Below are positions 23,551-55,921 of a DNA stretch of 64,000 bases, one piece after another. Numbering within the stretch: position 1 is the first letter of the stretch; each line of letters opens with the position of its first letter. A program made the translations under genes and the position numbers. Source of the DNA: a virus. Taxonomy: Duplodnaviria; Caudoviricetes. The stretch is taken from IMG/VR virus record IMGVR_UViG_3300028864_000017, one strand, 5' to 3'. Below the pieces are notes generated by a model, which had not been told where the DNA came from, did not search any database, and saw nothing but the letters and a program-made list of their open reading frames with translations.

Positions 23551-24945
23551 ATGATTGAGTTAAAAGGTAAATATACAGACGCTAAAATATTTATAGATGA
23601 AGTTGAAGAAGGAGTCTATACACAAATATACAATGTCATTAACTCAGAAACATCTAATGGGTTGAAAGTCAGACTAATGCCAGACGTGCATGTTGGCTCA
23701 GATATTTGTATTGGGTTTTCCATGGAATTGGGTAAGTATCTCAAACCAAGCACTATAGGTGTGGATATCGGCTGCGGGATGCTAAGTGCTAGATTTTCAG
23801 GTAGAACCACATTAGATTTAGAAAAAATTGATAATCTGATACGTGAAAATGTTCCTATGGGATTTGGTATGCACGAAGATATCAAATTTAAAAATATCCC
23901 TTTTGGTGATGTTCAAGTAATTGCAGATAACTTCATTGTAAAATTTAACGAAAAATTTGGGACATCTTATGATTCTCCATCATACAATGATAAATGGCTA
24001 ACATCTAAATTGAAAGATATTGGAATTGATGAAGGTAAATTTTACAAATCTATTGGTACATTAGGAGGTGGTAACCACTTTATTGAACTTGGTAAGTCAG
24101 ATAAGACTAATGATTATTGGGTAACAGTCCACTCTGGGTCAAGAAACTTTGGACTTAAAATTGCGGAATACTGGACTAAAGTTGCAAGAGGTAAAGTATT
24201 TGTTGCAACCAAAGAATATAACATGGAATTGGATGACATTACAATGAATACTTATCCTAAATCTGATATTGATAAAAAAATAAAAGAATTAAGGACAAGA
24301 TACAGTCTTAATATTGACAAAGAATATTTAGATGGTGAGTATCTTATTGGATATCTATTTGATATGATTTTTGCTCAACAATATGCTCTATGGAGTAGAA
24401 AAACAATGTTATCATTGATAAAAAAAGCATTGAATATCAAAAAGTTTGATGAAGAAATTCATTCAATACATAACTATGTTGATTTCAAAGATTTTATCAT
24501 AAGAAAAGGTGCAATCTCATCTTATGTTGGTGAAAAAATGATTATACCATTCAATATGAGAGATGGAATACTTATATGCGAAGGTAAATCAAATGAAGAT
24601 TGGAACAACTCAGCACCACATGGGTCTGGTCGTTTGATGTCAAGATCAAAAGCAAAAGAGTCAATTGATTTAAAAGATTTTCAGAAAGTAATGAAAGGTA
24701 TATATTCAACATCTGTATGTAAAAGTACAATTGATGAATCACCATTTGCTTACAAAAACTCTGATATGATTGAAAAAGCTATCGAGCCTACTGCATTAAT
24801 TCTTGATAAAATAAAACCAATCTTAAACATAAAAGATAAATCTGAAGGTACATCTTGGAAAGATAAGAAAGAGCAAAAAAAGAAAGATAAGCAACGTAAC
24901 AACGAAAGAAATGAAGTTTCTTATCAAAAGATGAAAAAATTCTAA
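23551..24945 (+). CDS. rtcB: RtcB RNA ligase
   Basis: MPDVHVG, GVDIGCG, GTLGGGNHFIE, VHSGSRN, IHNY, SAPHGSGR, DESPFAYK. Confidence 0.95.
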   Translation: MIELKGKYTDAKIFIDEVEEGVYTQIYNVINSETSNGLKVRLMPDVHVGSDICIGFSMELGKYLKPSTIGVDIGCGMLSARFSGRTTLDLEKIDNLIRENVPMGFGMHEDIKFKNIPFGDVQVIADNFIVKFNEKFGTSYDSPSYNDKWLTSKLKDIGIDEGKFYKSIGTLGGGNHFIELGKSDKTNDYWVTVHSGSRNFGLKIAEYWTKVARGKVFVATKEYNMELDDITMNTYPKSDIDKKIKELRTRYSLNIDKEYLDGEYLIGYLFDMIFAQQYALWSRKTMLSLIKKALNIKKFDEEIHSIHNYVDFKDFIIRKGAISSYVGEKMIIPFNMRDGILICEGKSNEDWNNSAPHGSGRLMSRSKAKESIDLKDFQKVMKGIYSTSVCKSTIDESPFAYKNSDMIEKAIEPTALILDKIKPILNIKDKSEGTSWKDKKEQKKKDKQRNNERNEVSYQKMKKF

Positions 24946-39574: not shown

Positions 39575-39841
39575 ATGATAACAAATTTGAATATTGGAGA
39601 TAAAATTATTCTAAAAAAACCTTCAAATATATTTGAGGAATTTGGAATACCATCAGATTTGAGTGTTGATGAAACTTATACTATATCTGAGATACATAAA
39701 GGATTAATTGATAATGTCATTATACGTGTTGGAATAAAAGAAAAACCATATTCATTATATTATATTGGATTATTTGAAACATCATTGAAATTTGAAAGAA
39801 GACAAAAATTAAACAACTTGAAAAAATATGAAAAAAACTAA
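39575..39841 (+). CDS. KOW/SH3-like protein with RxxKL tag
   Basis: LNIGDKIIL, LSVDETYTI, ERRQKLNNL. Confidence 0.65.
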   Translation: MITNLNIGDKIILKKPSNIFEEFGIPSDLSVDETYTISEIHKGLIDNVIIRVGIKEKPYSLYYIGLFETSLKFERRQKLNNLKKYEKN

Positions 39842-40904
39842 TTTAAAACTGGCAAACGGAGAAAAAGCACTAATTGTTGATAACAATGAAGTGAAAATTT
39901 TAAAATCAGAAAACTACAATTTTCTATTTAATAAAAAAACAGGATTCTTTGCCAGATGGGGTAAAACAGAAGAAGATGATGGAGATTTAAATCTTGGATT
40001 ACCTGAAATTGCAGATATCGAAATTGCTGAAATTTGTGAAGGTGTTCCTGGAATAGGGCCATGTAAATTCTGCTATAAGAGTAATGGTAATCATGGACAT
40101 AATATGTCATTAGAAACATTCAAAAAAGTTTTCGATAAATTACCATCAAGTATTGGACAAATCGCATTTGGTTGTGGTACATTGAGAAGACATCCTGAAA
40201 TGTGGGAAATTTTCAAATATGCGAAAGATAATGGTGTCACACCAAATTTGACAATAAATGGTGACGTTGATGATGATGAATTTGATAAAATTTCTGAGAT
40301 GTGCGGAGCATGTGCAGTTTCTATTTATGATAAAAATCTATCATATGACGCTATTAAAAAACTTACTGATCGTGGAATGAAACAAGTGAATATTCACTAT
40401 ATGATTAGTCAAGAAACATATGAAAAGGCATTTGAAATAATGGATGATATAAAAACTGATCCAAGACTTGAAAAATTAGGAGCATTAGTATTTTTGAGTT
40501 TAAAAACAAAAGGTAGAAGCAAAGGCAAATTTCATCAATTGACTCAAGAACAATTTTCTAATCTTACTAATTATGCTCTTACTAATTCTGTTCCTATGGG
40601 ATTTGATTCTTGCTCAGCACAAAAATTCATGAAAGCAATTAAAGGACATGTAAATGAAGAAAAAATGATTCAATGTGCAGAACCTTGTGAAAGCACACTA
40701 TATAGCTTATATGTTGATGTCAATGGCAATTTCTTTCCATGTTCATTTTCACCTGATACAGAAGGTTGGGAAAAAGGATTATCTGTAATTGATTGTAATG
40801 ATTTCATTGAAGATATTTGGCAAAATGAAAAAACAAAAAAATTCCGTGATGGTGTCATAAAATGTAGGAACTGTGCTAAAAGTTGTTCAATTTATGAAAT
40901 TTAA
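39828..40904 (+). CDS. Radical SAM enzyme with SPASM/twitch C-terminal domain
   Basis: CEGVPGIGPCKFCY (CX8CX2C), TPNLTING, CAVSIY; PCESTLYSLYVDVNGNFFPCSF ... CRNCAKSC. Confidence 0.88.
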   Translation: MKKTNLKLANGEKALIVDNNEVKILKSENYNFLFNKKTGFFARWGKTEEDDGDLNLGLPEIADIEIAEICEGVPGIGPCKFCYKSNGNHGHNMSLETFKKVFDKLPSSIGQIAFGCGTLRRHPEMWEIFKYAKDNGVTPNLTINGDVDDDEFDKISEMCGACAVSIYDKNLSYDAIKKLTDRGMKQVNIHYMISQETYEKAFEIMDDIKTDPRLEKLGALVFLSLKTKGRSKGKFHQLTQEQFSNLTNYALTNSVPMGFDSCSAQKFMKAIKGHVNEEKMIQCAEPCESTLYSLYVDVNGNFFPCSFSPDTEGWEKGLSVIDCNDFIEDIWQNEKTKKFRDGVIKCRNCAKSCSIYEI

Positions 40905-43019: not shown

Positions 43020-43907
43020 ATGAATAAATATTTCACATATACAATAAAAGACAAAAAAGATAAAAATTATCTTTTTATTAAATATCTTATTGTAACTAAT
43101 ATAAAATTTTCAAGTTATCATGAATGCGAATATGGTGAGTATATAACTTTCAGTGTTAATAATAACATTCCAAGAAAATTAAAATTAAAAGTTCTAAATA
43201 ACATAAAAATTAGTTATGAAGAACAACAAATTTTAGAAATTATTAGTCAGTCTACACCAGGTGTGAGAATGGATGTTATGTGTGGTTCTGATTTTAATCA
43301 CACTTCTGAAACAGCAAAAAATTTCTCAAATACAAACAACGTAATTTGCAGTTTCAATTTTAATGGTATAATTTGTTTAATTGACAAAAGTACAAATCTC
43401 AATAATTTATATAAGTATTATAATGATGCTCATTTGATGGAATGGGCTAAAATTGGTCCTATATGTGATGATGAATATGATGATAAAACTAAAATTGAGT
43501 ATGAAAAAAAATTAAAAATATCTGAGGAAAAATCTATAAAAAGAAGAATTGAAGAACACAAAAAAGATATTGAAGTTAAAAGAAAGTATAAAGAAAAAAT
43601 AAAAGGAATTGATATTGAACTATTAAATCAAAAAGATTGGGATGATTGGAAGTTAAAAAATAAAGATTCATACGGAAATTGTGTATTTGAATATGCTGAA
43701 GGATGGGCTAAATTAATGCAATCAGAAGCAAAATCAAAAAGTAAAGAAATTGATATTGAATTACTAAAAGAAATTGCAAGTAAAACATCATTTGAAATGG
43801 ATTTTTTAGGAATATCAGGATCAATGTTTTATGCAGCTCAATCAATTCTTGTACAATGTTGGAAATATGGTAGTTTACTTAAAGAATGGAGTGAAATCAA
43901 TAAATGA
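43020..43907 (+). CDS. Hypothetical protein
   Basis: C-terminal DSYGNCVFEYAEGWAKLMQ ... GISGSMFYAAQSILVQCWKYG phage domain. Confidence 0.65.
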   Translation: MNKYFTYTIKDKKDKNYLFIKYLIVTNIKFSSYHECEYGEYITFSVNNNIPRKLKLKVLNNIKISYEEQQILEIISQSTPGVRMDVMCGSDFNHTSETAKNFSNTNNVICSFNFNGIICLIDKSTNLNNLYKYYNDAHLMEWAKIGPICDDEYDDKTKIEYEKKLKISEEKSIKRRIEEHKKDIEVKRKYKEKIKGIDIELLNQKDWDDWKLKNKDSYGNCVFEYAEGWAKLMQSEAKSKSKEIDIELLKEIASKTSFEMDFLGISGSMFYAAQSILVQCWKYGSLLKEWSEINK

Positions 43908-44542
43908 AAATAATAAAAGAAACTTGTTATAAAGGAACTAGAATTTTAGTCGGAGGAGAAAAAAGAGAATTAATAAATTCAATGATTAAAATATTAATTG
44001 ATGAATATCATTTTCAGGAAATTCAAATACCAATCATTCAATTTCAAGAATTGTTTCAAAATAAGGTAGGAGAAGAAAATAACAATATGATGTACAATTT
44101 TAAAGATAGAGGAGATAGAGATTTATGCTTAGCTCCTGAATATACTGCAGTTGTTCAAAAACTATCTAAAACAACATACAAAAATGAAAAAGATGTATTA
44201 TTATTCTATGTTTGTGAATGCTTTCGTGGAGAAAAACCACAGCATGGAAGATTTCGTCAATTCACTCAATTTGGAGTTGAAATATTAAATCCTACTCATG
44301 ATTATCTATCAGAAGGAGCAAACTTACAACATTTAGCAATGAAATTATTAACAAAAAATTTCACTGATAATATTGATGATTATGTTATTAACAATGATGT
44401 AAAAAGAGGACTTGATTATTACAAAAATGGTAAGGGATTTGAAATAACTTGCGAAAAATTAGGATCATCAAAACAGATTTGTGGAGGAGGAGAATATGAT
44501 GGAGGAGTTGGATTTGCAATAGGAATTGACAGATTAATATAA
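43904..44542 (+). CDS. hisS: Histidyl-tRNA synthetase-like protein, catalytic core only (212 aa)
   Basis: YNFKDRGDRDLCLAPEYTA; motif 2 FRGEKPQHGRFRQFTQFGVE; RGLDYY; motif 3 GGGEYDGGVGFAIGIDRL, then stop. Confidence 0.88.
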   Translation: MKIIKETCYKGTRILVGGEKRELINSMIKILIDEYHFQEIQIPIIQFQELFQNKVGEENNNMMYNFKDRGDRDLCLAPEYTAVVQKLSKTTYKNEKDVLLFYVCECFRGEKPQHGRFRQFTQFGVEILNPTHDYLSEGANLQHLAMKLLTKNFTDNIDDYVINNDVKRGLDYYKNGKGFEITCEKLGSSKQICGGGEYDGGVGFAIGIDRLI

Positions 44543-44587: not shown

Positions 44588-44941
44588 ATGAAAATAAGAA
44601 GTGGATTTGTGAGTAACTCAAGTAGCTCATCTTTTGTAATTTTATTACCTGAGAATTTTCTTGAAATTGTTGATTATGATAAAATTACTGATGGTGATGA
44701 AGATTTTCCATTAGACACGTTTAAAGAATTATTGAAAAAACTTATTGATGAAAATGGATTATATAATTATGATATTTATGAGTATATAATATCTAATGAC
44801 GTGGAAGATTATGATTTACCTGATAGTTTAAATGATGTTATTCGTCCATACATAATTGCAGAGGTTGAAGGTGGTCCAGATGAAGGACAAATTATTATTG
44901 CTGATACTAAAAAAATCAATGAAATTTTAAAAAAGAAATAA
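44588..44941 (+). CDS. NSSSSS-motif protein 1
   Basis: MKIRSGFVSNSSSSSF. Confidence 0.8.
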   Translation: MKIRSGFVSNSSSSSFVILLPENFLEIVDYDKITDGDEDFPLDTFKELLKKLIDENGLYNYDIYEYIISNDVEDYDLPDSLNDVIRPYIIAEVEGGPDEGQIIIADTKKINEILKKK

Positions 44942-44945
44942 AATT

Positions 44946-45386
44946 ATGAAAGTAAGAAATGGATTTGTAAGTAATAGTAGCAGTAGTTCTTTTATTGTTA
45001 CTATTAAAAATGGAGAAAAAATATCAAAAAATATTCTTATGAAGTTATTTGATTTAGACGAAAATTCTATATTATTCAACTTTGCAAATGGATTATCGGA
45101 TTGGATGATTAACAATCTTAAAGAAATGAGCATTAAAGATATATTTGAAAATTATTGTGATTCAGGTAAGAATTTATCAGATGAAGAAATGATAGATGAA
45201 ATAATTGAACAAGGATATCCTAATATATCTAGAGAAGATTTGTTAAGAATATTAAGAAAAGAATATCGTTATTATGAAGGTTCAGCATCTGATGATTCTG
45301 GAGATGGATTAGAAACTTATTTATGTGAAACAGGAATAAATGTCAACAATGATTTAATTCACATTCAAAGTGGAGGAGATTATTAA
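44946..45386 (+). CDS. NSSSSS-motif protein 2
   Basis: MKVRNGFVSNSSSSSF. Confidence 0.8.
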   Translation: MKVRNGFVSNSSSSSFIVTIKNGEKISKNILMKLFDLDENSILFNFANGLSDWMINNLKEMSIKDIFENYCDSGKNLSDEEMIDEIIEQGYPNISREDLLRILRKEYRYYEGSASDDSGDGLETYLCETGINVNNDLIHIQSGGDY

Positions 45387-45403
45387 AAAAATAAATTAAA
45401 AAT

Positions 45404-45796
45404 ATGAAAATAAGAAATGGATTTGTAAGTAATTCAAGTAGTTCATCATTTGTAGTAAGAGGAATTAAACTTACAATATATGATTTAGCAAAATGCTTGA
45501 ATATAAAAAATGAAGAATTTGAAGAAATTGAAGATGATTATGATAAATTTGAATTTTTTTCAAATAAACTTGATGATGAATTTAGAATTGAAGCAGATGG
45601 TAATTATTTTGGAGAAAAAGATTACAATACTCTTATTGTAGGTGATTCACTAGGTGGATTAGAAGATGGAGAAGTAACAGAATTTAAAGATCGTACAACA
45701 GAAGAAGATGATGCATTACGTCAAAAATTTGAAAAATATGGAATTACAGGAGTAATTAACACATATATTCAAATGGTGAGTAACGACAATTATTAA
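45404..45796 (+). CDS. NSSSSS-motif protein 3
   Basis: MKIRNGFVSNSSSSSF. Confidence 0.8.
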   Translation: MKIRNGFVSNSSSSSFVVRGIKLTIYDLAKCLNIKNEEFEEIEDDYDKFEFFSNKLDDEFRIEADGNYFGEKDYNTLIVGDSLGGLEDGEVTEFKDRTTEEDDALRQKFEKYGITGVINTYIQMVSNDNY

Positions 45797-45824
45797 ACCA
45801 GTTTAAAATAGAATTAATAATATT

Positions 45825-46271
45825 ATGACAAATAATCAAACTCATAACATATTTTACTTTCTTGGAATTATGATAAATGATAATAAAATTATAAATACAT
45901 CACCTGATTATTTAATAGAAAAAGCTAATGCATTTTTTAGTAAATTAGGAAAAGATGAATTTATATCTAATATTAAAAATATATATCGTTCTCAAAAACT
46001 AGATTACACTACTGAATTTTGGTTATCATATTGTCAAATATGGCATATTGATAAAAACAATTTTGAATTGTTAAATATTATTAATTTTATATTAAATTCA
46101 AATATTACTGATACTAAAAATGTGATTCAAAACTTTAAAAAATATATTGGAGATATTAATATCATTCCTGATTTAGATTTGAGTTTTAAATTGCATCCAA
46201 CATTATTAATACATATAAATAAAAGTATTGATTTTGATAGTAGATATTTAAAGTTATTATCACTAAAATAA
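45825..46271 (+). CDS. Hypothetical protein
   Basis: ORF. Confidence 0.6.
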   Translation: MTNNQTHNIFYFLGIMINDNKIINTSPDYLIEKANAFFSKLGKDEFISNIKNIYRSQKLDYTTEFWLSYCQIWHIDKNNFELLNIINFILNSNITDTKNVIQNFKKYIGDINIIPDLDLSFKLHPTLLIHINKSIDFDSRYLKLLSLK

Positions 46272-46291
46272 AAACAAAAGAAAATAAAAGA

Positions 46292-47329
46292 ATGACAAAT
46301 AATATAGCGTTAACGTATGATGATATTCAACTTATACCATTTTATAGTGAAGTAGAACATAGAAATAAAATTTCATTAACAACAAAACTATCTACAAATT
46401 ATGAGTTGATGATACCATTGGTAGCATCACCTATGGATACCGTTTGTGAGCATGAAATGGCGTTTAAAATGTTTCAATTAGGAGGAGTAGGATGTATTCA
46501 TAGATTCATGACTATTGAAGAACAAGTTGATGAAATCAAAAAATTAAAAAAATTAATTGATTATAGTTTATATAATCCTTTTATTAATGTACAGAATATT
46601 CCAATAATGGCATCAGTAGGCTCAAATGGAGATTTTTTAGAAAGGTCTAAATCATTAATAGAATCTGGAGTAAATGTAATTCTTATTGATGTTGCTCATG
46701 GACATCACATAAATGTCAAAAAAGCGATTAAAGAAATAAAAGGATTGAATTTAGGAGTGGATATAATTGCAGGTAATATTGCAACTGCAGAAGCCGCAAT
46801 TGATTTGCAAAATTGGGGAGCTGATGGACTAAGATGTGGTATTGGTGGCGGAAGTCTTTGTACAACTAGAATCAAGACAGGATTTGGTGTTCCAAATGTT
46901 ACAAGTTTAATAGAAATTTTAAATGTTGCAAAAGTACCAGTTATGGCTGATGGTGGAATTAGAACAAGTGGAGATATATCAAAGGCTCTTGCATTAGGTT
47001 CATCTACTATTATGTTAGGCTCACTATTAGCTGGAACAGAAGAATCACCAGGAAAGGTTATAGAGAGTCCTAATGGCTTATATAAACGATATAGAGGCTC
47101 TGCATCATTAGAAACAAAAACTGTTCATGGTCAAGCGGAAAGAAATGTGGAAGGAGAGTCAACAACAATTCCATTTAAAGGAGGAGTCAAATTTGTAATT
47201 GAAGGATTAATAAACGGTGTTCGTTCTGCATTATCTTATGGAGGTGCAAAAAATTTATCTGAATATCACCCTAAATGGTATCAAGTAACAAATGCTGGAA
47301 TTGCTGAAGCAAGACCACATTTATTATAA
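46292..47329 (+). CDS. guaB: IMP dehydrogenase / GMP reductase family protein without CBS domains
   Basis: LTYDDIQLIP, ASPMDTV, IDVAHGH, GIGGGSLCTTR, ADGGIRTSGDISKALA, YRGSAS, VEG. Confidence 0.9.
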   Translation: MTNNIALTYDDIQLIPFYSEVEHRNKISLTTKLSTNYELMIPLVASPMDTVCEHEMAFKMFQLGGVGCIHRFMTIEEQVDEIKKLKKLIDYSLYNPFINVQNIPIMASVGSNGDFLERSKSLIESGVNVILIDVAHGHHINVKKAIKEIKGLNLGVDIIAGNIATAEAAIDLQNWGADGLRCGIGGGSLCTTRIKTGFGVPNVTSLIEILNVAKVPVMADGGIRTSGDISKALALGSSTIMLGSLLAGTEESPGKVIESPNGLYKRYRGSASLETKTVHGQAERNVEGESTTIPFKGGVKFVIEGLINGVRSALSYGGAKNLSEYHPKWYQVTNAGIAEARPHLL

Positions 47330-47347
47330 AAATAAAAACATGATAAC

Positions 47348-47809
47348 ATGAAAATAAGAAATGGATTTGTTAGTAATTCATCATCAAGTAGTTTTATTGT
47401 TGGCATAGCCAAGATTAATGATTACAATGAATTTACACAATACACAAAAGATAATAATATTAAATTAGATTATGATGTTAAAGTATTAACCTTATCTAAT
47501 ATTAAAGAAAGTACTAATTATGATATACATTTTAATAACAATAAAATTTATGTAGATTCATTTCAAACAGATGCAAATTTAGATATTAAAGATTGTAAAG
47601 ATGAAGATTTATTTTTAGTTGTTAATATATGTAATAATGAAGGTGATTCAGATTTTATGACATCTGATTATGATGATATTGATTATGATATTGATATGTC
47701 ATTCTTTAATAAAAATGATAAAAACGTTTATAATGCATTTTATAGTAATAAATCGGGATTGGACTTAAATAAATCAGAAGTTTATTTTGGTGCAGGTCGA
47801 AATGGATAA
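47348..47809 (+). CDS. NSSSSS-motif protein 4
   Basis: MKIRNGFVSNSSSSSF. Confidence 0.8.
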   Translation: MKIRNGFVSNSSSSSFIVGIAKINDYNEFTQYTKDNNIKLDYDVKVLTLSNIKESTNYDIHFNNNKIYVDSFQTDANLDIKDCKDEDLFLVVNICNNEGDSDFMTSDYDDIDYDIDMSFFNKNDKNVYNAFYSNKSGLDLNKSEVYFGAGRNG

Positions 47810-47830
47810 AAAATAAAATAAAAATAAAAT

Positions 47831-48133
47831 ATGAAAATAAGAAATGGATTTGTTAGCAATTCATCATCAAGTAGTTTTGTTATAATTGGAGTCAAAAGAT
47901 TAGATTGTACAGAAGAAGAAGTTGAAAATGGATTTGAAAATGGAATAGAAGCACTTGATGTTGAAATGTCTAATTATGGATATATTGTTGGATATATAAT
48001 TTCAAATGGTGAAGAATTAAATTCTAGTATAACACCAATATCTGTTATAATGGAAAAGTCAAAAATAGTAGCAGAAACATTAAATGTTGATATTAGTGAA
48101 GTAGAATTAATAACTGGAACTAGATATTGTTAA
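47831..48133 (+). CDS. NSSSSS-motif protein 5
   Basis: MKIRNGFVSNSSSSSF. Confidence 0.8.
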   Translation: MKIRNGFVSNSSSSSFVIIGVKRLDCTEEEVENGFENGIEALDVEMSNYGYIVGYIISNGEELNSSITPISVIMEKSKIVAETLNVDISEVELITGTRYC

Positions 48134-48150
48134 TATAAATAATATAAAAT

Positions 48151-48789
48151 ATGAAAATAAGAAATGGATTTGTAAGTAACTCATCATCTAGTAGCTTTAT
48201 AATTTCTAACAACAATTTTGAAAGTTTACGTGATCTTGCTACGCATATGATTAAATCGAAATATGATGATTATATGGGTAATACTGGAAGAGATAAACAA
48301 TATGATAAATATAGAATAAAAGAGCATGATTTATACATTAATGGGCTAAAAAATATAGACAAAAATCAGGCAATAACATTTCAAAGTTGTAACTATGATA
48401 CTTATATAAAAAAAGTAGCAGATTGCTATTTAGTTTCTACTAGTAATAACGAAGATTGGGATTTATGGCAATTTAGCACTAAATTAACTGATGATGCAAA
48501 ATCAGAATTACGAATATTATTACAAAAATATAAGGAAGATGATGATGAATGGTGCAGCATAACCAGTCTACTTGATGGTGATAGTGAATTTTATTCTTTT
48601 GATAATGATTATTATTCTTTAGATTATCAATTATTAGGAAAAGAAAGTTATGAATCTTGTCCAATATGTGATAAAAAAGGAGATTTTAATTATATGTGGG
48701 AAACAAAAAAGCACGGTCTTATATGTCCAGTATGTAATACAGTATATAAAAGAAAAGATAAATTAGATGAAATAACTAAAAATTTATAA
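48151..48789 (+). CDS. NSSSSS-motif protein 6 with Zn ribbon and RxxKL tag
   Basis: MKIRNGFVSNSSSSSF; CPICD ... CPVCN; RKDKLDEI. Confidence 0.8.
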   Translation: MKIRNGFVSNSSSSSFIISNNNFESLRDLATHMIKSKYDDYMGNTGRDKQYDKYRIKEHDLYINGLKNIDKNQAITFQSCNYDTYIKKVADCYLVSTSNNEDWDLWQFSTKLTDDAKSELRILLQKYKEDDDEWCSITSLLDGDSEFYSFDNDYYSLDYQLLGKESYESCPICDKKGDFNYMWETKKHGLICPVCNTVYKRKDKLDEITKNL

Positions 48790-48861
48790 TATTTTTGATT
48801 AAAATATTATAATATCAAATATTTTTTATAATTTTGTAAATAAAAATAAAAATAAAAATAT

Positions 48862-49053
48862 ATGTTAGAATTATTAAAATATGCTACTTCAGATTTTTGG
48901 ACATTTATATTTTGTTTTTTCATAATTTCTGTAATTGGAAGTTTTATAGTGGAAATATTCAACGCAATTTTTAAAAAGTCAGAGATTAGAATAGATTTAA
49001 CAGATAAAAAAGATAAACCAGATAAAACAGATAAAACAGATAATAAAAAATAG
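48862..49053 (+). CDS. Small membrane protein
   Basis: One TM helix; DK(T/P)DK repeat tail. Confidence 0.55.
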   Translation: MLELLKYATSDFWTFIFCFFIISVIGSFIVEIFNAIFKKSEIRIDLTDKKDKPDKTDKTDNKK

Positions 49054-49054
49054 T

Positions 49055-49579
49055 ATGAAAATAAGAACTGGATTTGTAAGCAATTCATCATCAAGTAGTT
49101 TTGTAGTTATCTTCCCATTTGAACCGAAATGTATGGAAGATGTAAAAAAAATTCTTTTTAGGGAAGAACAGTTATATTATGGAGATGAAAATTATTCTGT
49201 AAATAAAGTTTCAGAAACTATCTGGAATGATATATGTGATCAAACTAAGAATGATATTGATAAGGCAAGTGAAATAATATCGAATGGATATTTGGAAATG
49301 GAAAATGATGCTCCTGATTTTGATGATTTTAAATATATTGAAGATAGAAATGAAAGATGGGAAGCATTTGCAGAAGCTAAAGATAAATATTCAAAAAAAT
49401 TACTTAAAGAATTTTTCAATGTAAGAAAATTAAAACTTCAAGTTATTGATGGTAAAGAGGTAAATGATGGAGTGATGTATTGTTTTAGTTTTTCAGATAA
49501 TGATGGAGAATATTATAGTGCACTTGAACATGATGGAATATTCAACAAATTAAAAAATATAACTGTCAATTGTCATTGA
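49055..49579 (+). CDS. NSSSSS-motif protein 7
   Basis: MKIRTGFVSNSSSSSF; ends ITVNCH. Confidence 0.8.
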   Translation: MKIRTGFVSNSSSSSFVVIFPFEPKCMEDVKKILFREEQLYYGDENYSVNKVSETIWNDICDQTKNDIDKASEIISNGYLEMENDAPDFDDFKYIEDRNERWEAFAEAKDKYSKKLLKEFFNVRKLKLQVIDGKEVNDGVMYCFSFSDNDGEYYSALEHDGIFNKLKNITVNCH

Positions 49580-51506: not shown

Positions 51507-51578
51507 CGCGCGGTAGGGAAGTGATACCCCGCAAGGCTCATAACCTTGAGAACGCTGGTTTGAGTCCAGCCTGCGCAA
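51507..51578 (+). tRNA. tRNA-Met(CAT), initiator-like
   Basis: C1:A72 mismatch; caagg-CTCATAA-ccttg; T arm gctgg-TTTGAGT-ccagc. Confidence 0.8.
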
Positions 51579-51583
51579 CAATT

Positions 51584-51664
51584 AAAAAACTATATTGAAC
51601 AGCACCTCACTGGTAATGGGGACAATGCGAGTACACTAGCAGCTAAACTCAAAATAGTTTTTTT
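51584..51664 (+). ncRNA. tRNA-like structured element with Thr(GGT)-type anticodon hairpin
   Basis: Outer stem actat.ttga/tcaa.atagt, ACAGCA, cctca-CTGGTAA-tgggg; no canonical D or T arms. Confidence 0.45.
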
Positions 51665-51691
51665 AAAAATAATAAATTAAAAGTAAATATC

Positions 51692-51826
51692 ATGAATAAC
51701 ATTAATAACATATACAGCATTTATCGCAATTGTAATATTAATTACAATATGGAAGAGATATGTATTAATATGATTAATAATGATTATATTAATGATGATG
51801 AAAATAATGTAGGAAGAACTGGATAA
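51692..51826 (+). CDS. Putative attenuator leader peptide 2 (44 aa)
   Basis: MNNINNIYSIYRNCNINYNMEEICINMINNDYINDDENNVGRTG; no K, L or F. Confidence 0.75.
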   Translation: MNNINNIYSIYRNCNINYNMEEICINMINNDYINDDENNVGRTG

Positions 51827-51890
51827 GTTAAAAAATTATTATGTGAATAATAAAAAAACTCAGTTCTTAAAAATAAGAACTGAGTTTTTT
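51814..51890 (+). terminator. Attenuator 2: terminator with competing antiterminator
   Basis: Stem CTCAGTTCTT (51859-68)/AAGAACTGAG (51875-84) plus T6; AAGAACTG (51814-21) complements CAGTTCTT (51861-68). Confidence 0.82.
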
Positions 51891-51933
51891 ATTTTTAAAT
51901 GCTCTTTGAAATACTAGATAATGAATAATAAAT

Positions 51934-52016
51934 GGGAGTAATGCTCAAATTGGTCAGGCGCAAAACTGTAAATTTTGTAACCTTTTAGGTCGTCAGTTCG
52001 AATCTGGCTGCTCCCA
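51934..52016 (+). tRNA. tRNA-Tyr(GTA)
   Basis: caaaa-CTGTAAA-ttttg, long variable arm, TTCGAAT. Confidence 0.9.
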
Positions 52017-52026
52017 CAAAAAACAC

Positions 52027-52098
52027 GATGCGTTCGTATATCGGAAAGTACTCTAGGTTTTCAACCTAGCAAGATGAGTTCAACTCTCATACGCATTA
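52027..52098 (+). tRNA. tRNA-Glu(TTC)
   Basis: gatgcgt/acgcatt; ctagg-TTTTCAA-cctag; atgag-TTCAACT-ctcat. Confidence 0.85.
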
Positions 52099-52106
52099 CA
52101 AAAAAT

Positions 52107-52179
52107 GGGATATAGGTCAAATGGTTAAGATGTCACCCCGTCACGGTGCACGGAGCGAGTTCGAATCTCGTATATCCCG
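52107..52179 (+). tRNA. tRNA-Asp(GTC) with C33
   Basis: gggatat/atatccc; loop CCGTCAC; TTCGAAT. Confidence 0.85.
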
Positions 52180-52202
52180 CTTATTATCAAAAAATTAAAA
52201 AT

Positions 52203-52290
52203 GCATTGGTTGCTTTAGTCGGTCGAAAAGTCTGGTCTGTTAAACCAGTAAGAGTAATCTTCAACGTAGGTTCGAATCCTATCCAGTGCG
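52203..52290 (+). tRNA. tRNA-Asn(GTT) with long variable arm
   Basis: gcattgg/ccagtgc; ctggt-CTGTTAA-accag; aaga-GTAA-tctt extra arm. Confidence 0.85.
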
Positions 52291-52296
52291 CAAAAA

Positions 52297-52368
52297 GGGA
52301 GTGTAGCTCAAAGGTAGAGCGTTTCGCTGTTAACGAAAGTGTTGGGATGTCGCAATTCCCCACTCCCG
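52297..52368 (+). tRNA. tRNA-Asn(GTT) with atypical T loop
   Basis: gggagtg/cactccc; tttcg-CTGTTAA-cgaaa; T loop ATGTCGCAAT lacks TTC. Confidence 0.8.
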
Positions 52369-52448
52369 CGAATAAATGATTAACTTTAAACTTTAATCTT
52401 TTTTAATATTATATATTTTTATATATACAATAAAAATATAAATAAATT

Positions 52449-53273
52449 ATGGAAAGCATTAAAACTAAAATATTATCATTAAGAAAAGAAGGAAAAACAT
52501 ACAATGAAATATCAGAATTATTAAATTGTTCAAAAGGTACAATATCTTATCATTGTAAAAAATTATATAATAATATTGAATTAAATAAAAAAAACACAAA
52601 ATTATCAAATTTAAAAAAATTAAAAAATATACCAAATATAGATTTTGGTGATGAGATATCTGATGAGATTTTTAAAAAAGTTATTGAATATCGAATAAAT
52701 GGTAATACATATGAAGAAATAATAGAAAAAACTAAATTATCTTTAGATAAAATTAAAAAAATATGCAGATTAAATAATATCAATGATGGTAATTATAAAA
52801 AAAATAATTATTGTAAAATATATGAAAACGTTAATAATGATGACGTTATTGAAATGCAAAAATACTATGATGAATGTAAAAGTACAAGAAAAGTATCTAA
52901 AAAATTCAATATTGGTAGATATCAAATATCTAAAATTTTAATTATAAATAAAAAAGAAAAATTATCTAAAGAAGAGTATAAAATAAAAAGAAAAAATGAT
53001 ATTGTAAATAATGTTATTAGTTGGAGAAAAGATAAAAAAAGGAAACTTGTTGAATATAAAGGAGGAAAATGCGAAAGGTGTGGATATGATAAATGTATAG
53101 ATGTATTTGATTTTCATCATAAAGATCCTACTCAAAAAGATTTTGGAATAAGTGCAAAATCTTATTCATATGAAAGATTAAAAAAAGAAGTTGATAAATG
53201 TATGTTAGTGTGTAAAAATTGTCACACAGAAATACATTATGAAATAAAAAATAAAAATGGTTCTGGCGCATAA
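52449..53273 (+). CDS. HTH plus HNH endonuclease (homing-endonuclease-like) inside the tRNA array
   Basis: N-terminal HTH repeats; CERCGY ... FDFHHKDP ... KCMLVCKNCHTEIH. Confidence 0.88.
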   Translation: MESIKTKILSLRKEGKTYNEISELLNCSKGTISYHCKKLYNNIELNKKNTKLSNLKKLKNIPNIDFGDEISDEIFKKVIEYRINGNTYEEIIEKTKLSLDKIKKICRLNNINDGNYKKNNYCKIYENVNNDDVIEMQKYYDECKSTRKVSKKFNIGRYQISKILIINKKEKLSKEEYKIKRKNDIVNNVISWRKDKKRKLVEYKGGKCERCGYDKCIDVFDFHHKDPTQKDFGISAKSYSYERLKKEVDKCMLVCKNCHTEIHYEIKNKNGSGA

Positions 53274-53344
53274 CGGCTGGTGTACCTGACTGTCACTCAG
53301 GCTTCTCGTAAGGGATATAGGGAATTCGACTTTCCTCAGAACCG
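53259..53344 (+). tRNA. tRNA-Asp(GTC) with long variable arm
   Basis: ggttctg/cagaacc; cctga-CTGTCAC-tcagg; tctc-GTAA-ggga extra arm. Confidence 0.85.
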
Positions 53345-53354
53345 CAAAGATAAT

Positions 53355-53436
53355 GGAAATATCGCATAGTGGCAATTGCAACTGACTGTAAATCAGTTCT
53401 TTCACAAGTTCGTGGGTTCGAGTCCCTCTATTTCCA
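53355..53436 (+). tRNA. tRNA-Tyr(GTA)
   Basis: ggaaata/tatttcc; actga-CTGTAAA-tcagt; TTCGAGT. Confidence 0.9.
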
Positions 53437-53443
53437 CAAAAAT

Positions 53444-53517
53444 GACCGAGTGCCCGAATGGAATAAAGGGATAGTCTGCAAAACTATATTGTGTGGGTTC
53501 GAGTCCCACCTTGGCCT
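53444..53517 (+). tRNA. tRNA-Cys(GCA)
   Basis: atagt-CTGCAAA-actat; gtggg-TTCGAGT-cccac; U73. Confidence 0.88.
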
Positions 53518-53529
53518 CAATGAACATTA

Positions 53530-53601
53530 TGCCGAAGCTTAGTGGAAAAGAGATTTCTCTCATAAGGAAATCCAAATGAGTTCGAACCTCATATTCGGTA
53601 C
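53530..53601 (+). tRNA. tRNA-CAT (Met or Ile2)
   Basis: tttct-CTCATAA-ggaaa; atgag-TTCGAAC-ctcat; acceptor register slightly irregular. Confidence 0.75.
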
Positions 53602-53667
53602 AGAGTTTATTATTATGACTAGTATCATACTAATAGTATGTTATGATTAATAAAAATAAACTAAAAT

Positions 53668-53741
53668 AGTCTTGTATATCAGTCGGTTAGATTGTCATCC
53701 TGATAAGATGGAGGTCGTGAGTTCAAGTCTCACCAGGACTA
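53668..53741 (+). tRNA. tRNA-Ile(GAT)
   Basis: agtcttg/caggact; tcatc-CTGATAA-gatgg; TTCAAGT. Confidence 0.9.
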
Positions 53742-53752
53742 CTAAATAACAT

Positions 53753-53829
53753 TGGTGAATATACCCTCTGCCTGATAAGTAGTAGAAAGGTTAATTGGTC
53801 ACATGTGGGTTCAATTCCCACTTCACCAA
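53753..53829 (+). tRNA. Non-canonical D-arm-less tRNA-Ile(GAT)-like RNA
   Basis: tggtgaa/ttcacca; only 7 nt before the anticodon arm ctgc-CTGATAA-gtag; 21-nt insert with AAGGTTAATTGGT; gtggg-TTCAATT-cccac. Confidence 0.75.
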
Positions 53830-53842
53830 CAATAAAAAACAC

Positions 53843-53921
53843 ACTGTCGTATCCCCACTGGCTTATATCCAGTCATTAACAAGGTAATTGGTGTATGAGG
53901 GTTCAAGTCCCTTCGGCAGTA
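53843..53921 (+). tRNA. Non-canonical D-arm-less tRNA-Ile(TAT)-like RNA
   Basis: actgtcg/cggcagt; 7 nt then actgg-CTTATAT-ccagt; 23-nt insert with AAGGTAATTGGT; gaggg-TTCAAGT-ccctt. Confidence 0.75.
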
Positions 53922-53934
53922 CAATAAACAACAA

Positions 53935-54059
53935 GGTAGTGTAACTCAAAAGCACAAAGGGGATAATTATGAAACTAGAATAAATAATTTGAAACGAGCG
54001 AAGGATAGAGTGCTGGGCCGATGTCTCAGAAGTTGATGGTTCGAGTCCATCTGCTACCA
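53935..54059 (+). tRNA. tRNA-like gene (GAT) with ~55-nt D-loop insertion
   Basis: ggtagtg/tgctacc; D stem actc/gagt; ctggg-CCGATGT-ctcag; gatgg-TTCGAGT-ccatc. Confidence 0.65.
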
Positions 54060-54067
54060 CAAAAATA

Positions 54068-54151
54068 TGTGATTAATATGACACAGGTAGTCATGTCAGT
54101 ATGTAAAACTGATCTCTTCGGAGGTTGTGGGTTCGAGCCCAACTAGTACCA
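54068..54151 (+). tRNA. Degenerate tRNA-Tyr(GTA)
   Basis: atgac/gtcat D stem, tcagt-ATGTAAA-actga, ctc-TTCG-gag, TTCGAG; acceptor stem poorly paired. Confidence 0.55.
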
Positions 54152-54219
54152 CAAAAAATATTTAATACAATTTATATTATTTATATAATTATCACTATTT
54201 ATATATAAATAAAAAAAAT

Positions 54220-54759
54220 ATGAATAAATTAGTCGAGAAATTTAAATCATCACAAGAAAAATTTGCAATATTTTTATCAGATTCATTATCTAGTATGACA
54301 ATGTTTTGGATAATTACAATATTAGTTATATTTCCATTATTTTTTAGTCAGCCATCAGGTTTAGTTGCATGGATGCAATATTTAGTATCAGTTTTCTTTC
54401 AAGGAGTAGCATTACCAGTTTTAGGATATATTGCTAAGATAAGTGGAAGTAGAACTGATGCAATAATATCAAAGATTGAAGAATTATCCGAAAAAATAGA
54501 AGCTATGACAGAGCATATAAATGTTGATGTTGATGACATAAAAACTCATGTAGTTGATATTGATATTGAATTAAAAGATGTAGATACTGATGTTAGTGAC
54601 ATAAAAAGTCATGTTGATGATATAGATATTGAGTTAAAGTATGCTGACACAGACGTTAATGAAATACAAAATCATGTTGATAATATACAAGAAGATTTAA
54701 AAAATGTAGACTTTGACATAAATAACATTCAAGATAATATAGAAAAAGAAAAAAAATAA
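54220..54759 (+). CDS. DUF1003-like membrane protein with 21-aa coiled-coil repeats
   Basis: 2 TM; repeats DVDTDVSDIKSHVDDIDIELK; TATATAAATA upstream. Confidence 0.65.
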   Translation: MNKLVEKFKSSQEKFAIFLSDSLSSMTMFWIITILVIFPLFFSQPSGLVAWMQYLVSVFFQGVALPVLGYIAKISGSRTDAIISKIEELSEKIEAMTEHINVDVDDIKTHVVDIDIELKDVDTDVSDIKSHVDDIDIELKYADTDVNEIQNHVDNIQEDLKNVDFDINNIQDNIEKEKK

Positions 54760-54830
54760 TTTACATTAAAATTATCATTGTATAAAAATTTTAATATAAT
54801 TTGTACTATTTATACATAAAGACAAATGAT

Positions 54831-55211
54831 ATGGATAATTTAGTAGAAAATATTAAGTCGGAGCAAGAAAATATATCATTAAGAACTGATGATATTATTA
54901 CAAAGATAGAAGAGTTATCTAAAAAAATAGACACAATAACTGCACAAATAACAAATGAAGTTAGTGAAATAAAAAATATTATTTATGACATACAACAAAA
55001 TATAAAAAATGTTGATACTGATGTTGATAATATAGTAGGTAATGTAGGTGAAATAAAAGGAGAATTAAAGGATGTTGATTCTGATATTAGTAAAATCAAA
55101 GATGATATTAAAAATGATAATTTGGAAGATATTAAAGACAGTGAAGAATTAAAAAACGCAATAAAAAAGAAATCTGGTGGAATTACATATAATGTAGTTA
55201 TTCAACAATAA
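54831..55211 (+). CDS. Soluble paralog of the 54220 repeat domain
   Basis: RTDDIITKIEELSKKI; NVDTDVDNIVGNVGEIKGELK. Confidence 0.65.
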   Translation: MDNLVENIKSEQENISLRTDDIITKIEELSKKIDTITAQITNEVSEIKNIIYDIQQNIKNVDTDVDNIVGNVGEIKGELKDVDSDISKIKDDIKNDNLEDIKDSEELKNAIKKKSGGITYNVVIQQ

Positions 55212-55274
55212 AAAATTTTTAATATTGAATATACAAAAAAATTGTGTATCTTTGTTTTTATTTAAAAAATCAAC

Positions 55275-55760
55275 ATGAAATACGGAATTTACACATTAGT
55301 AATTGAGAATTATATCACTAAAAATTTACCTCTACTAAGTACATTTTCATTAAAAATGGAATTCGGATGGGGTAATGGTTATATATTAATACCTAATAAT
55401 CATCCATCATATGGAGTTTCATATGATGATATGAATACAATAAGTGTACATGGAGGATTAACATATGGTCAATTTTTTGATTCTAAATCATTTTTAGAAT
55501 GGATTGATAATTTAGAAATTGATGGTGATGTAACAATAGATAATTATAAAAAATTAGATAATTATTGGATGATAGGATTTGATACTAATCATTATGGAGA
55601 TAGTATTGAAAAATGTTCTAAAGAATATGTAATACATCAATCTGAATATTTAATGGAACAATGTTTAAATAATAAAATAGAAGGAGTTATGAAATACAAA
55701 TTAGCATACTCAAGAAAAGAAAAATTAAAAAACATTAATCAAGTCATTAAAAATAAATGA
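55275..55760 (+). CDS. Conserved phage hypothetical protein with RxxKL tag
   Basis: WGNGYILIPNNHP, VHGGLTY, IGFDTNHYGD; RKEKLKNI; promoter at 55247-55254. Confidence 0.7.
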   Translation: MKYGIYTLVIENYITKNLPLLSTFSLKMEFGWGNGYILIPNNHPSYGVSYDDMNTISVHGGLTYGQFFDSKSFLEWIDNLEIDGDVTIDNYKKLDNYWMIGFDTNHYGDSIEKCSKEYVIHQSEYLMEQCLNNKIEGVMKYKLAYSRKEKLKNINQVIKNK

Positions 55761-55774
55761 GTAAATACTTACAT

Positions 55775-55846
55775 GTGCTTATAGTGTAATGGATAACACG
55801 TATCACTACGGATGATGAGTTGAAGGTTCGAGTCCTTCTAGGCATA
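55775..55846 (+). tRNA. tRNA-Arg(ACG)
   Basis: gtgctta/taggcat; tatca-CTACGGA-tgatg; gaagg-TTCGAGT-ccttc. Confidence 0.9.
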
Positions 55847-55921
55847 CAAAAAAATCAATTTGGACTAATTTAATTTTATATATAAGTTAATTAATAAACT
55901 TAAAATTAAAAAATTAAATAA

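What the first reader, a model, noticed from the sequence alone, without database searches (positions are those of the whole stretch)
43904..44542. Minimal 212-aa HisRS lacking the anticodon-binding domain
SEEN: class II motifs 2 and 3 and the His-binding RGLDYY are intact, but the stop comes right after motif 3 and the helical insertion domain is largely absent. No tRNA-His is in the window. The gene sits directly before the NSSSSS gene run. KNOWN: HisRS identity relies heavily on G-1/C73, and aaRS paralogs (HisZ, EpmA) are repurposed. INFERENCE: either a minimal synthetase that can charge anticodon-damaged or variant tRNA-His, or a histidyl-adenylate ligase acting on protein or other substrates.
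Basis: partly seen in the sequence, partly recalled or inferred. Interest (0 to 1): 0.62.

Follow-up and report, generated by a model that had tools for sequence, protein, structure and literature searches.

The report
Half-size histidyl-tRNA synthetase of huge phages
A roughly 700-kb peat phage encodes a 212-residue histidyl-tRNA synthetase reduced to its catalytic core, one member of a large, conserved and unstudied family that probably still loads histidine onto tRNA-His by reading only the acceptor end.

Summary
ORF 43904-44542 (+) encodes 212 aa with the HisRS motifs 1, 2 and 3 and the HisA and HisB loops. It lacks the ~90-aa insertion domain and the anticodon-binding domain (ABD). It ends at TAA, with a second in-frame TAA 33 nt later, and independent peat assemblies reproduce it.

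The truncation is not recent. About 2,000 homologues, mostly 203-220 aa, form dozens of 50%-identity clusters, largely on 400-700-kb phage contigs. One fully supported branch separates them from full-length HisRS, and dN/dS is 0.11-0.22.

Residues that contact His, ATP and the tRNA acceptor end are conserved. A homodimer is predicted. The genes often lie in tRNA arrays beside other slimmed synthetases, CCA-adding enzyme and RNA ligases. In those loci G-1:C73 marks 21 of 26 tRNA-His genes and none of ~395 other tRNAs.

Best reading (about 0.6): an anticodon-blind tRNA-His synthetase. A HisZ role is not supported, and histidylation of the neighbouring NSSSSS proteins has no synteny support (1-2 of 69 loci).

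Caveats:
- No tRNA-His is found in this phage lineage so far.
- An engineered ABD-less E. coli fragment is ~2000-fold less active.
- Bacterial chromosomal paralogues also exist.
- Activity is untested.

This scan noted the same family before on other DNA.

The parts
43904..44542 (+). mini-HisRS gene (212 aa plus TAA); its ATG overlaps the TGA stop of the upstream Tad4-like ORF (ATGA)
43931..43942 (+). N-terminal K-G-T-R (residues 10-13), equivalent to the T. thermophilus R7-G-T-K segment that contacts the acceptor-stem backbone; also part of the predicted dimer interface
44015..44044 (+). motif 1 region (residues 38-47, invariant P43), the core of the predicted homodimer interface
44105..44119 (+). 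D-R-G-D-R loop (residues 68-72), counterpart of the T. thermophilus DRGGR loop that forms the G-1 pocket from the other subunit; only semi-conserved
44132..44146 (+). A-P-E-Y-T (residues 77-81), histidine-binding Glu and Thr (E. coli E83, T85); a relative carries an intein exactly between Y80 and T81
44219..44281 (+). motif 2 and its loop (residues 106-126): R108, E110, K111, Q113, R116, R118, Q122, E126, which contact ATP, His and the acceptor end
44288..44401 (+). 38-residue linker (residues 129-166, one short helix) in place of the ~90-residue insertion domain
44405..44422 (+). HisA loop R-G-L-D-Y-Y (residues 168-173; E. coli R259-Y264)
44480..44506 (+). HisB loop C-G-G-G-E-Y-D-G-G (residues 193-201); the ~10-residue loop that follows it in cellular HisRS is deleted
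44510..44539 (+). motif 3 G-F-A-I-G-I-D-R-L-I (residues 203-212, R210); the protein ends inside the motif-3 helix
44573..44575 (+). second in-frame TAA, which argues against read-through or recoding
23551..24945 (+). context: RtcB tRNA-splicing/repair ligase
51507..55847 (+). context: array of 8 phage tRNA genes (Met, Tyr x2, Glu, Asn, Cys, Ile, Arg); none is His

Best explanation
The gene encodes a real, functional histidyl-tRNA synthetase reduced to its class II catalytic core. As a homodimer it most likely binds histidine and ATP, forms histidyl-adenylate, and transfers histidine to the 3' end of tRNA-His. It would recognise that tRNA only through the acceptor end (G-1:C73, the 5' phosphate and CCA), using the motif-2 loop, the N-terminal basic residue and a loop from the partner subunit. 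With no anticodon-binding domain it cannot read the anticodon. It belongs to the translation and tRNA-maintenance toolkit of huge phages, which lets the phage keep host or phage tRNA-His charged during infection. SHOWN: the architecture, family-wide conservation, purifying selection, conservation of active-site and acceptor-contact residues, the genomic setting, and the exclusivity of G-1:C73 to tRNA-His. INFERRED: adenylation, tRNA charging, dimerisation and the biological purpose.
For: (1) The fold matches E. coli HisRS with bound His-AMP (TM-score 0.83 normalised to the query; model pLDDT 88.9).
(2) Across 39 diverse members the His/ATP residues are near-invariant: E79, T81, R108, E110, Q122, E126, R168, Y172/173, GGG-Y, R210. 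Residues that in the 4RDX complex touch only tRNA are also kept: Tt R115 is R/K in 33 of 39, Q117 is Q in 34, R122 is R in 34, and R7 is R/K in 28. Thirty-six columns are invariant across mini, intermediate and full-length HisRS.
(3) In 4RDX the insertion-domain contacts were largely dispensable: R197A kept more than half of wild-type activity and K209A was about wild type.
(4) Natural intermediates of 313-349 aa lack the insertion domain but keep the anticodon-binding domain.
(5) dN/dS is 0.11-0.22. One relative carries an intein with a homing endonuclease exactly inside the His-binding APEY|T motif.
(6) 39 of 69 loci lie in tRNA arrays. tRNA-His is the tRNA type present in the most loci (22) and the one most often nearest. 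Neighbours include CCA-adding enzyme, Rnl1, other RNA ligases and other slimmed synthetases.
(7) G-1 plus C73 occurs in 21 of 26 tRNA-His genes and in 0 of ~395 other tRNAs in these loci.
(8) Phosso infects a Rhizobiales host, a clade whose tRNA-His lacks G-1 and whose type of HisRS did not charge E. coli tRNA. Yet Phosso carries a canonical G-1:C73 tRNA-His 276 nt from its only HisRS-like gene, the mini form. A Pararhizobium tRNA array shows the same pairing.
(9) The homodimer prediction scored ipSAE 0.85 against a best control of 0.47. Calibration: 20 of 30 solved pairs and 1 of 23 single chains reached the mark. The runs agree in at least 98% of contacts and the partner's pLDDT is at least 85. 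This pass may reflect likeness to solved HisRS dimers.
Against: No activity has been measured. The engineered E. coli catalytic domain without the anticodon-binding domain is ~2000-fold less active, and this protein lacks the insertion domain as well. The equivalent of Tt E64, reported as essential for aminoacylation, is Q, M or R here. The DRGGR G-1 pocket is only semi-conserved. No tRNA-His was found in this phage's 143-kb record or in a 330-kb close relative, and 30 of 69 loci have no tRNA within 6 kb. The proximity of tRNA-His is only marginally significant (p about 0.04, uncorrected). Bacterial chromosomal paralogues coexist with a normal HisS and have no tRNA genes nearby, which hints that the family may also have, or may instead have, a non-housekeeping role.
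Confidence: 0.6

Rival explanations
1. It is a histidine-adenylating enzyme whose acceptor is not tRNA. It would make His-AMP and pass histidine to another molecule (a small metabolite, a carrier or other protein, or a modified nucleotide), or use His-AMP plus ATP to make dinucleoside polyphosphates such as Ap4A.
For: The His and ATP sites are intact. Both tRNA-binding appendages are gone. Tt E64 is not conserved. NUDIX and HIT hydrolase genes lie nearby in some relatives. Bacterial paralogues coexist with a normal HisS. Other synthetase paralogues such as amino-acid:carrier-protein ligases and YadB set a precedent.
Against: Residues that contact only tRNA in the HisRS-tRNA complex are conserved across the family. 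No carrier protein or any other protein-coding neighbour is conserved; the best recurs in 9 of 70 loci. The NSSSSS genes co-occur in 1-2 of 69 loci. The recurrent genomic company is tRNA genes and translation or tRNA-repair genes.
Confidence: 0.17
2. It has a non-catalytic or regulatory role. It could be a HisZ-like histidine sensor or regulator of ATP-phosphoribosyltransferase, or a subunit that pairs with host HisRS monomers through the conserved motif-1 interface to modulate or hijack the host enzyme.
For: Automatic annotation names the bacterial members 'ATP phosphoribosyltransferase regulatory subunit'. HisZ also lacks the anticodon-binding domain. The motif-1 dimer interface is retained and a dimer is predicted.
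Against: No HisG was found in five genomes, two of them 98-100% complete. The family profile scores 134-139 bits on HisRS over both halves, but 63-69 bits on HisZ over the N-terminal half only. hisS scores 143 bits against 86 for hisZ. Bacteria with the short form already have a separate HisZ-like gene of about 400 aa. Near-invariance of the catalytic Arg and Glu residues would not be expected for a mere binder.
Confidence: 0.1
3. It is a decaying remnant of a captured host hisS gene, with no function.
For: The protein is half the normal length and scores below the curated HisS cut-off. One 93%-identical copy elsewhere (L068) is broken.
Against: About 2,000 homologues end at the same point using all three stop codons. 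dN/dS is 0.11-0.22. A single deep branch separates them from full-length HisRS. The predicted fold is confident. The ORF is reproduced in independent samples.
Confidence: 0.02

Closest known systems
Bacterial histidyl-tRNA synthetase (HisS, class IIa; E. coli 1KMM/2EL9, T. thermophilus 4RDX)
   Same: The catalytic fold, motifs 1-3, the HisA and HisB loops, the motif-2 loop that reads the acceptor end, and the predicted dimer interface.
   Different: It lacks the ~90-residue insertion domain, a ~10-residue loop before motif 3, and the whole anticodon-binding domain. It has 212 aa rather than ~420. The Tt E64 equivalent is not conserved. It scores 143 bits against a cut-off of 287.
Engineered E. 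coli HisRS fragments: Ncat (residues 1-320) and the HisRS urzymes (10-134 plus 301-320) (PMC3060492)
   Same: Catalytic-core-only HisRS without an anticodon-binding domain. The urzymes also lack the insertion domain, and they still activate histidine.
   Different: Those are laboratory constructs with 2x10^3-fold to 9x10^6-fold lower activity. This is a natural, selected family that keeps HisA, HisB and motif 3 (which the urzymes partly lack) but not the insertion domain (which Ncat keeps).
HisZ, regulatory subunit of short-form ATP-phosphoribosyltransferase
   Same: A HisRS paralogue without an anticodon-binding domain; this is the name automatic annotation gives to the bacterial members.
   Different: Only the N-terminal half matches, at half the score. 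No HisG is present in the phages. The catalytic and tRNA-contact residues are retained. Bacteria with the short form have a separate HisZ-like gene as well.
Delta-N pyrrolysyl-tRNA synthetase (e.g. Methanomethylophilus alvus, ~275 aa)
   Same: A natural class II synthetase consisting of the catalytic domain only; it appears among the fold matches (TM-score 0.67-0.68). That it works without reading the anticodon is my own knowledge.
   Different: It has a different amino-acid specificity and lineage, and is still ~60 residues longer.
tRNA synthetases of huge phages (Al-Shayeb et al. 2020, PMC7162821)
   Same: The same kind of genomes. That paper reports up to 15 synthetases per genome and proposes that they charge phage tRNA variants.
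   Different: The main text mentions neither a core-only HisRS nor histidine.

Membership tests
Histidine-tRNA ligase (HisS; TIGR00442 / PF13393) | Class II motifs 1, 2 and 3 with the invariant motif-2 and motif-3 arginines | tested here: met
   R108 in 37 of 39 and R210 in 37 of 39; P43 is invariant in alignments A2-A4 and near-invariant in A1
Histidine-tRNA ligase (HisS; TIGR00442 / PF13393) | Histidine-specific HisA (RGLDYY) and HisB (GGxYD) loops plus the PE-x-T histidine contacts | tested here: met
   R168 33/39, Y172 33/39, Y173 35/39, G195 39/39, Y198 37/39, E79 38/39, T81 35/39
Histidine-tRNA ligase (HisS; TIGR00442 / PF13393) | Motif-2 loop residues that contact G-1, its 5' phosphate and positions 70-76 of tRNA-His | tested here: met
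   E110 (E31, D7), position 111 R/K in 33 of 39, Q113 34/39, R116 34/39, R118 34/39, mapped from 4RDX
Histidine-tRNA ligase (HisS; TIGR00442 / PF13393) | Insertion domain between motif 2 and HisA | tested here: not met
   E. coli residues ~134-226 have no counterpart; a 38-residue linker takes their place
Histidine-tRNA ligase (HisS; TIGR00442 / PF13393) | C-terminal HGTP_anticodon (anticodon-binding) domain | tested here: not met
   The protein ends in motif 3. PF03129 is absent from the 143-kb record and from two complete relatives
Histidine-tRNA ligase (HisS; TIGR00442 / PF13393) | Score above the curated equivalog cut-off | tested here: not met
   143 bits against 286.75; the Pfam domain cut-off is passed, 59.9 against 25
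Histidine-tRNA ligase (HisS; TIGR00442 / PF13393) | Alpha2 homodimer | tested here: inconclusive
   Predicted: ipSAE 0.85 against a best control of 0.47; this may reflect likeness to solved HisRS dimers
Histidine-tRNA ligase (HisS; TIGR00442 / PF13393) | Histidylation of tRNA-His | not testable with these tools
   Needs a biochemical assay
HisZ (ATP-PRT regulatory subunit; TIGR00443) | Closer in sequence to HisZ than to HisS | tested here: not met
   hisZ 86 bits against hisS 143; family profile 63-69 bits on HisZ structures (N-terminal half only) against 134-139 on HisRS
HisZ (ATP-PRT regulatory subunit; TIGR00443) | A partner short-form HisG in the same genome | tested here: not met
   PF01634 is absent from 5 of 5 records, two of them 98-100% complete; a host HisG cannot be excluded
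Amino-acid:carrier-protein ligase type of synthetase paralogue | A conserved adjacent carrier protein or other acceptor gene | tested here: not met
   No protein-coding neighbour recurs in more than 9 of 70 loci

The most novel reading that the evidence does not exclude
This is a naturally evolved, half-size, anticodon-blind HisRS, a living counterpart of the engineered urzymes. Together with canonical G-1:C73 tRNA-His genes it would form a portable, self-sufficient charging pair carried by huge phages and bacterial tRNA arrays. That pair would let these elements decode His codons independently of the host enzyme, even in hosts whose own HisRS no longer recognises G-1, and possibly on unusual long-variable-arm or repaired tRNA-His.
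Probability: 0.4. Interest if true: 0.8.

Novelty: new variant of a known kind. Interest (0 to 1): 0.66.

Why it matters
If active, this would be, to my knowledge, the smallest natural class II synthetase. It would show that about 210 residues are enough for specific aminoacylation in vivo. Until now that question has been approached only with engineered fragments whose activity is 10^3-fold to 10^7-fold lower. It would give a natural test case for how synthetases gained their tRNA-binding modules. It could also provide a compact anticodon-independent enzyme for genetic-code engineering, and it would help explain how huge phages keep translation going. In addition, it would correct the automatic 'HisZ' label on hundreds of bacterial proteins.

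Tried and rejected
- Read-through or recoding of the stop: rejected. The stop is TAA with a second in-frame TAA, and homologues end at the same place using TAA, TGA or TAG.
- Split gene with a separate anticodon-binding domain: none in the own record and none in two complete relatives. Where PF03129 does occur, it belongs to ThrRS or ProRS genes.
- A second, full-length HisS in the phage genomes: none in 5 of 5.
- HisZ/HisG pairing: no HisG.
- Conserved protein partner or NSSSSS/Tad4 linkage: none.
- Histidine directed to other anticodons: no non-His tRNA carries G-1:C73.
- tRNA-His proximity statistics: only marginal.
- PHROGs: no family for this protein.
- Expression: no RNA holder listed.
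- BLAST with a heterologous tRNA-His on the 330-kb relative found nothing; replaced by a full ARAGORN scan, which also found no tRNA-His.
- The search for related loci with the wide alignment failed on genome contigs; repeated with a narrower alignment.
- TrmK neighbour in Pseudomonas: local synteny only, 7 related loci.
- Family pI is only slightly more basic than full-length HisRS, so there is no clear compensating basic surface.
- The paper that established the S. meliloti tRNA-His type could not be found in the library. The host argument therefore rests on the order-level statement in PMC3064791.

Full report
WHAT IS THERE. The window is part of a 143-kb IMG/VR virus record with about 24% G+C, which CheckV rates about 20% complete. 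A protein from the same 90% cluster sits on a 711-kb contig, so the virus is probably a huge phage of roughly 700 kb. The DNA occurs in many peat metagenomes. The window also encodes an Hsp70, RtcB, PIN-PhoH and eight tRNAs. ORF 43904-44542 (+) gives 212 aa. Its ATG overlaps the TGA stop of the upstream gene (ATGA). It ends at TAA, with another in-frame TAA 33 nt later. Contigs from four other peat samples reproduce the ORF and its stop exactly.

ANATOMY. The protein matches Pfam tRNA-synt_His and TIGR00442 hisS, at 143 bits against a cut-off of 287. Against E. coli HisRS, residues 23-128 align with 24-133 and residues 133-202 with 227-292, and motif 3 closes the protein. The roughly 90-residue insertion domain, a 10-residue loop before motif 3 and the whole anticodon-binding domain are therefore missing. 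The AlphaFold model is confident (pLDDT 88.9). Its best structural match is E. coli HisRS with bound histidyl-adenylate, with a TM-score of 0.83 normalised to the query.

THE TRUNCATION IS A FAMILY TRAIT. A word-indexed search found 1,977 relatives. The listed ones are 203-279 aa, mostly 203-220 aa, and 66-92% identical. An exhaustive search of 50%-identity representatives shows dozens of clusters of 195-230 aa that match end to end, down to 34% identity. Full-length HisRS proteins appear only below about 120 bits and always as two stretches. In IMG/VR the gene lies on many contigs of 415-676 kb. ORFs end 0-10 residues after motif 3, using TAA, TGA or TAG. On a tree of 39 short and 44 full-length proteins, one branch with 100% SH-aLRT support separates the two forms. 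dN/dS against nine relatives is 0.11-0.22.

DOES IT LOOK CATALYTIC, AND DOES IT LOOK tRNA-BINDING? Across 39 diverse members the residues for histidine and ATP are near-invariant. The solved T. thermophilus HisRS-tRNA complex gives a checklist of acceptor-end contacts:
- E114, R115, Q117, R120 and R122 in the motif-2 loop;
- R7;
- E64;
- a Gly-Gly pocket contributed by the other subunit.
The motif-2 contacts and the R7 equivalent are conserved (33-38 of 39 for the motif-2 positions, 28 of 39 for R7). The pocket loop (DRGDR here) is only partly conserved. The E64 equivalent is Q, M or R. In the same paper the insertion-domain contacts were largely dispensable. Natural intermediates of 313-349 aa exist that have lost the insertion domain but keep the anticodon-binding domain. 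One relative carries an intein with a LAGLIDADG endonuclease, with canonical Cys1 and His-Asn/Thr+1 junctions, exactly between Y80 and T81 of the histidine-binding motif. A homodimer is predicted through the HisRS-type interface: ipSAE 0.85 against a best control of 0.47. In calibration 20 of 30 solved pairs and 1 of 23 single chains reached the mark. The runs agree in at least 98% of contacts and pLDDT is at least 85. This pass may simply reflect resemblance to solved HisRS dimers.

GENOMIC COMPANY. The window's own neighbours recur beside the gene in only 1-2 of 69 dereplicated loci. These are the Tad4-like ORF upstream and the NSSSSS-tag genes downstream. No protein-coding neighbour recurs in more than 9 of 70 loci. 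What does recur is tRNA genes: 39 of 69 loci have tRNAs within 6 kb. tRNA-His is the type found in the most loci (22) and the one most often nearest (6). A within-locus permutation gives only p of about 0.04, uncorrected. Specific cases:
- Two tRNA-His genes start 6 nt after the stop on a 376-kb contig.
- A tRNA-His lies 276 nt upstream in the cultured Sinorhizobium phage Phosso.
- Two RNA-ligase genes flank the gene in a 642-kb phage.
- CCA-adding enzyme, an AAA_33 kinase, NUDIX, NADAR, Rnl1 and an HD_4-domain protein lie within 10 kb on two contigs.
- A 240-289-aa class I Trp/Tyr-type synthetase core neighbours the gene in 7 loci.
Five complete or near-complete relatives have no full-length HisS. 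Two of them have no anticodon-binding domain of this type anywhere. The same genomes carry ThrRS without its editing half, ProRS without its INS domain, and GlyRS-like cores of 226-266 aa. Slimmed synthetases are thus a theme in these phages.

IDENTITY ELEMENTS. In the 69 loci, an encoded G at -1 together with C73 occurs in 21 of 26 tRNA-His genes and in none of about 395 other tRNAs. An anticodon-blind HisRS core would therefore still be specific. Phosso is a telling case. Its host belongs to the Rhizobiales, a clade listed as having tRNA-His without G-1 and a divergent HisRS. The Caulobacter enzyme of that type did not charge E. coli tRNA. Yet the phage tRNA-His is canonical (G-1, G1-C72, C73, CCA), and the only HisRS-like gene in the phage is the mini form beside it. 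A Pararhizobium tRNA array that holds a mini-HisRS also contains a canonical G-1:C73 tRNA-His. That S. meliloti itself lacks G-1 rests on the order-level statement and on my memory of the original paper, which I could not retrieve.

WHAT ARGUES FOR CAUTION.
- Activity is untested.
- Removing only the anticodon-binding domain from E. coli HisRS costs about 2000-fold in activity.
- This phage's 143-kb record and a 330-kb close relative (protein 91% identical, 13 tRNAs) have no tRNA-His. In this lineage the substrate would have to be host tRNA-His or a gene in the unsampled part of the genome.
- The family is not confined to phages. Short forms occur in Pseudomonas chromosomes (150-206 aa, host G+C, no tRNAs nearby), in Massilia, Undibacterium and ~1-Mb Pseudomonas plasmids, and in alphaproteobacterial tRNA arrays.
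- Those bacteria also have a normal HisS and a separate HisZ-like gene, so the short form is a third paralogue whose cellular role is unknown.

ALTERNATIVES.
- HisZ. Automatic annotation uses this name for the bacterial members, but the evidence does not support it. The family profile scores 134-139 bits on HisRS structures over both halves and 63-69 bits on HisZ over the N-terminal half only. No HisG is found in five genomes.
- A histidine-adenylating ligase for a non-tRNA acceptor, or an Ap4A-type synthase. This remains possible, but it does not explain the conserved tRNA-only contacts and has no conserved partner gene.
- A decaying remnant. This is excluded by the conservation data.

KNOWN OR NEW. 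Huge-phage synthetases are known as a class. Engineered core-only HisRS fragments are known. A recent paper presented a minimal GlyRS found in a database as noteworthy. I found no description of a natural core-only HisRS. This scan has noted the family before on other DNA, including a follow-up with a similar reading.

VERDICT. The best reading, at about 0.6, is an anticodon-independent tRNA-His synthetase. It is a new variant of a known kind, with interest 0.66.

Noticed in passing
window 44588-49579 and 39828-40904: Seven or more ORFs share the N-terminal tag MKIR(N/S)GFVSNSSSSSF and then diverge. A radical SAM/SPASM gene lies 3 kb upstream. One tag ORF hits phrog_7397 (unknown function) through the tag alone. 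These ORFs travel with the mini-HisRS only in the closest relatives.
   Followed up: partly
window 43020-43907: A 295-aa ORF whose C-terminal 90 residues match Pfam Tad4 (type I Thoeris inhibitor, 5.7e-20) and phrog_9822. Its stop overlaps the mini-HisRS start (ATGA).
   Followed up: partly
window 52203-52291; L005 10720-10808; L027 5820-5909; L016, L018, L022, L037, L072: tRNAs with a true long variable arm (class II shape, 86-90 nt) but Asn (GTT) or His (GTG) anticodons. The His ones keep G-1 and C73. This architecture is unusual for these amino acids.
   Followed up: partly
L092, L093, L094, L103, L104, L105 (relatives G002, G003 and Phosso); L032 7146-8015: Huge-phage relatives carry other slimmed synthetases: ThrRS of 375 aa without the editing half, ProRS of 368-373 aa without INS, GlyRS-like cores of 226-266 aa without an anticodon-binding domain, and a class I Trp/Tyr-type core of 240-289 aa. 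None was found in the window's own 143-kb record.
   Followed up: partly
P0122 (loci L108, L109): A mini-HisRS interrupted by a ~360-residue intein with a LAGLIDADG endonuclease, inserted between Y80 and T81 of the APEY|T motif.
   Followed up: yes
L124-L155 (Pseudomonas, Chromobacterium, Trinickia); L112-L122; L123; L158/L190: Short HisRS-like paralogues in bacterial genomes, auto-named 'ATP phosphoribosyltransferase regulatory subunit'. They coexist with a full HisS and a HisZ-like gene. The Pseudomonas forms seem to lack the N-terminal ~35 residues. The alphaproteobacterial copies sit in tRNA arrays made only of His, Pro, Leu and Tyr tRNAs, including a tRNA with anticodon ATG.
   Followed up: partly
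L068 6001-6508: A 93%-identical copy of the gene on a 141-kb viral contig is broken: the frame ends after 66 aa, then resumes. An earlier scan note describes a similar break on other DNA as a microhomology deletion.
   Followed up: no
tRNA-His genes in L016-L089: Nearly all phage tRNA-His genes are preceded by the same three bases, A-T-G, so positions -3 and -2 are conserved as well as G-1. This may be a processing signal.
   Followed up: no
window 46292-47329, 25852-27738, 23551-24945, 4354-5694, 1917-2786, 13149-14093: Other window genes: a GMP reductase/IMPDH-family protein lying inside the NSSSSS run, Hsp70/DnaK, RtcB, PIN-PhoH, a cation-efflux transporter and an ankyrin-repeat protein.
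   Followed up: no
L106 (G001:C1:148280-148636): A Thg1-like gene (86 bits) in the 676-kb relative, 48 kb from its mini-HisRS. It is absent from the four other genomes checked.
   Followed up: partly
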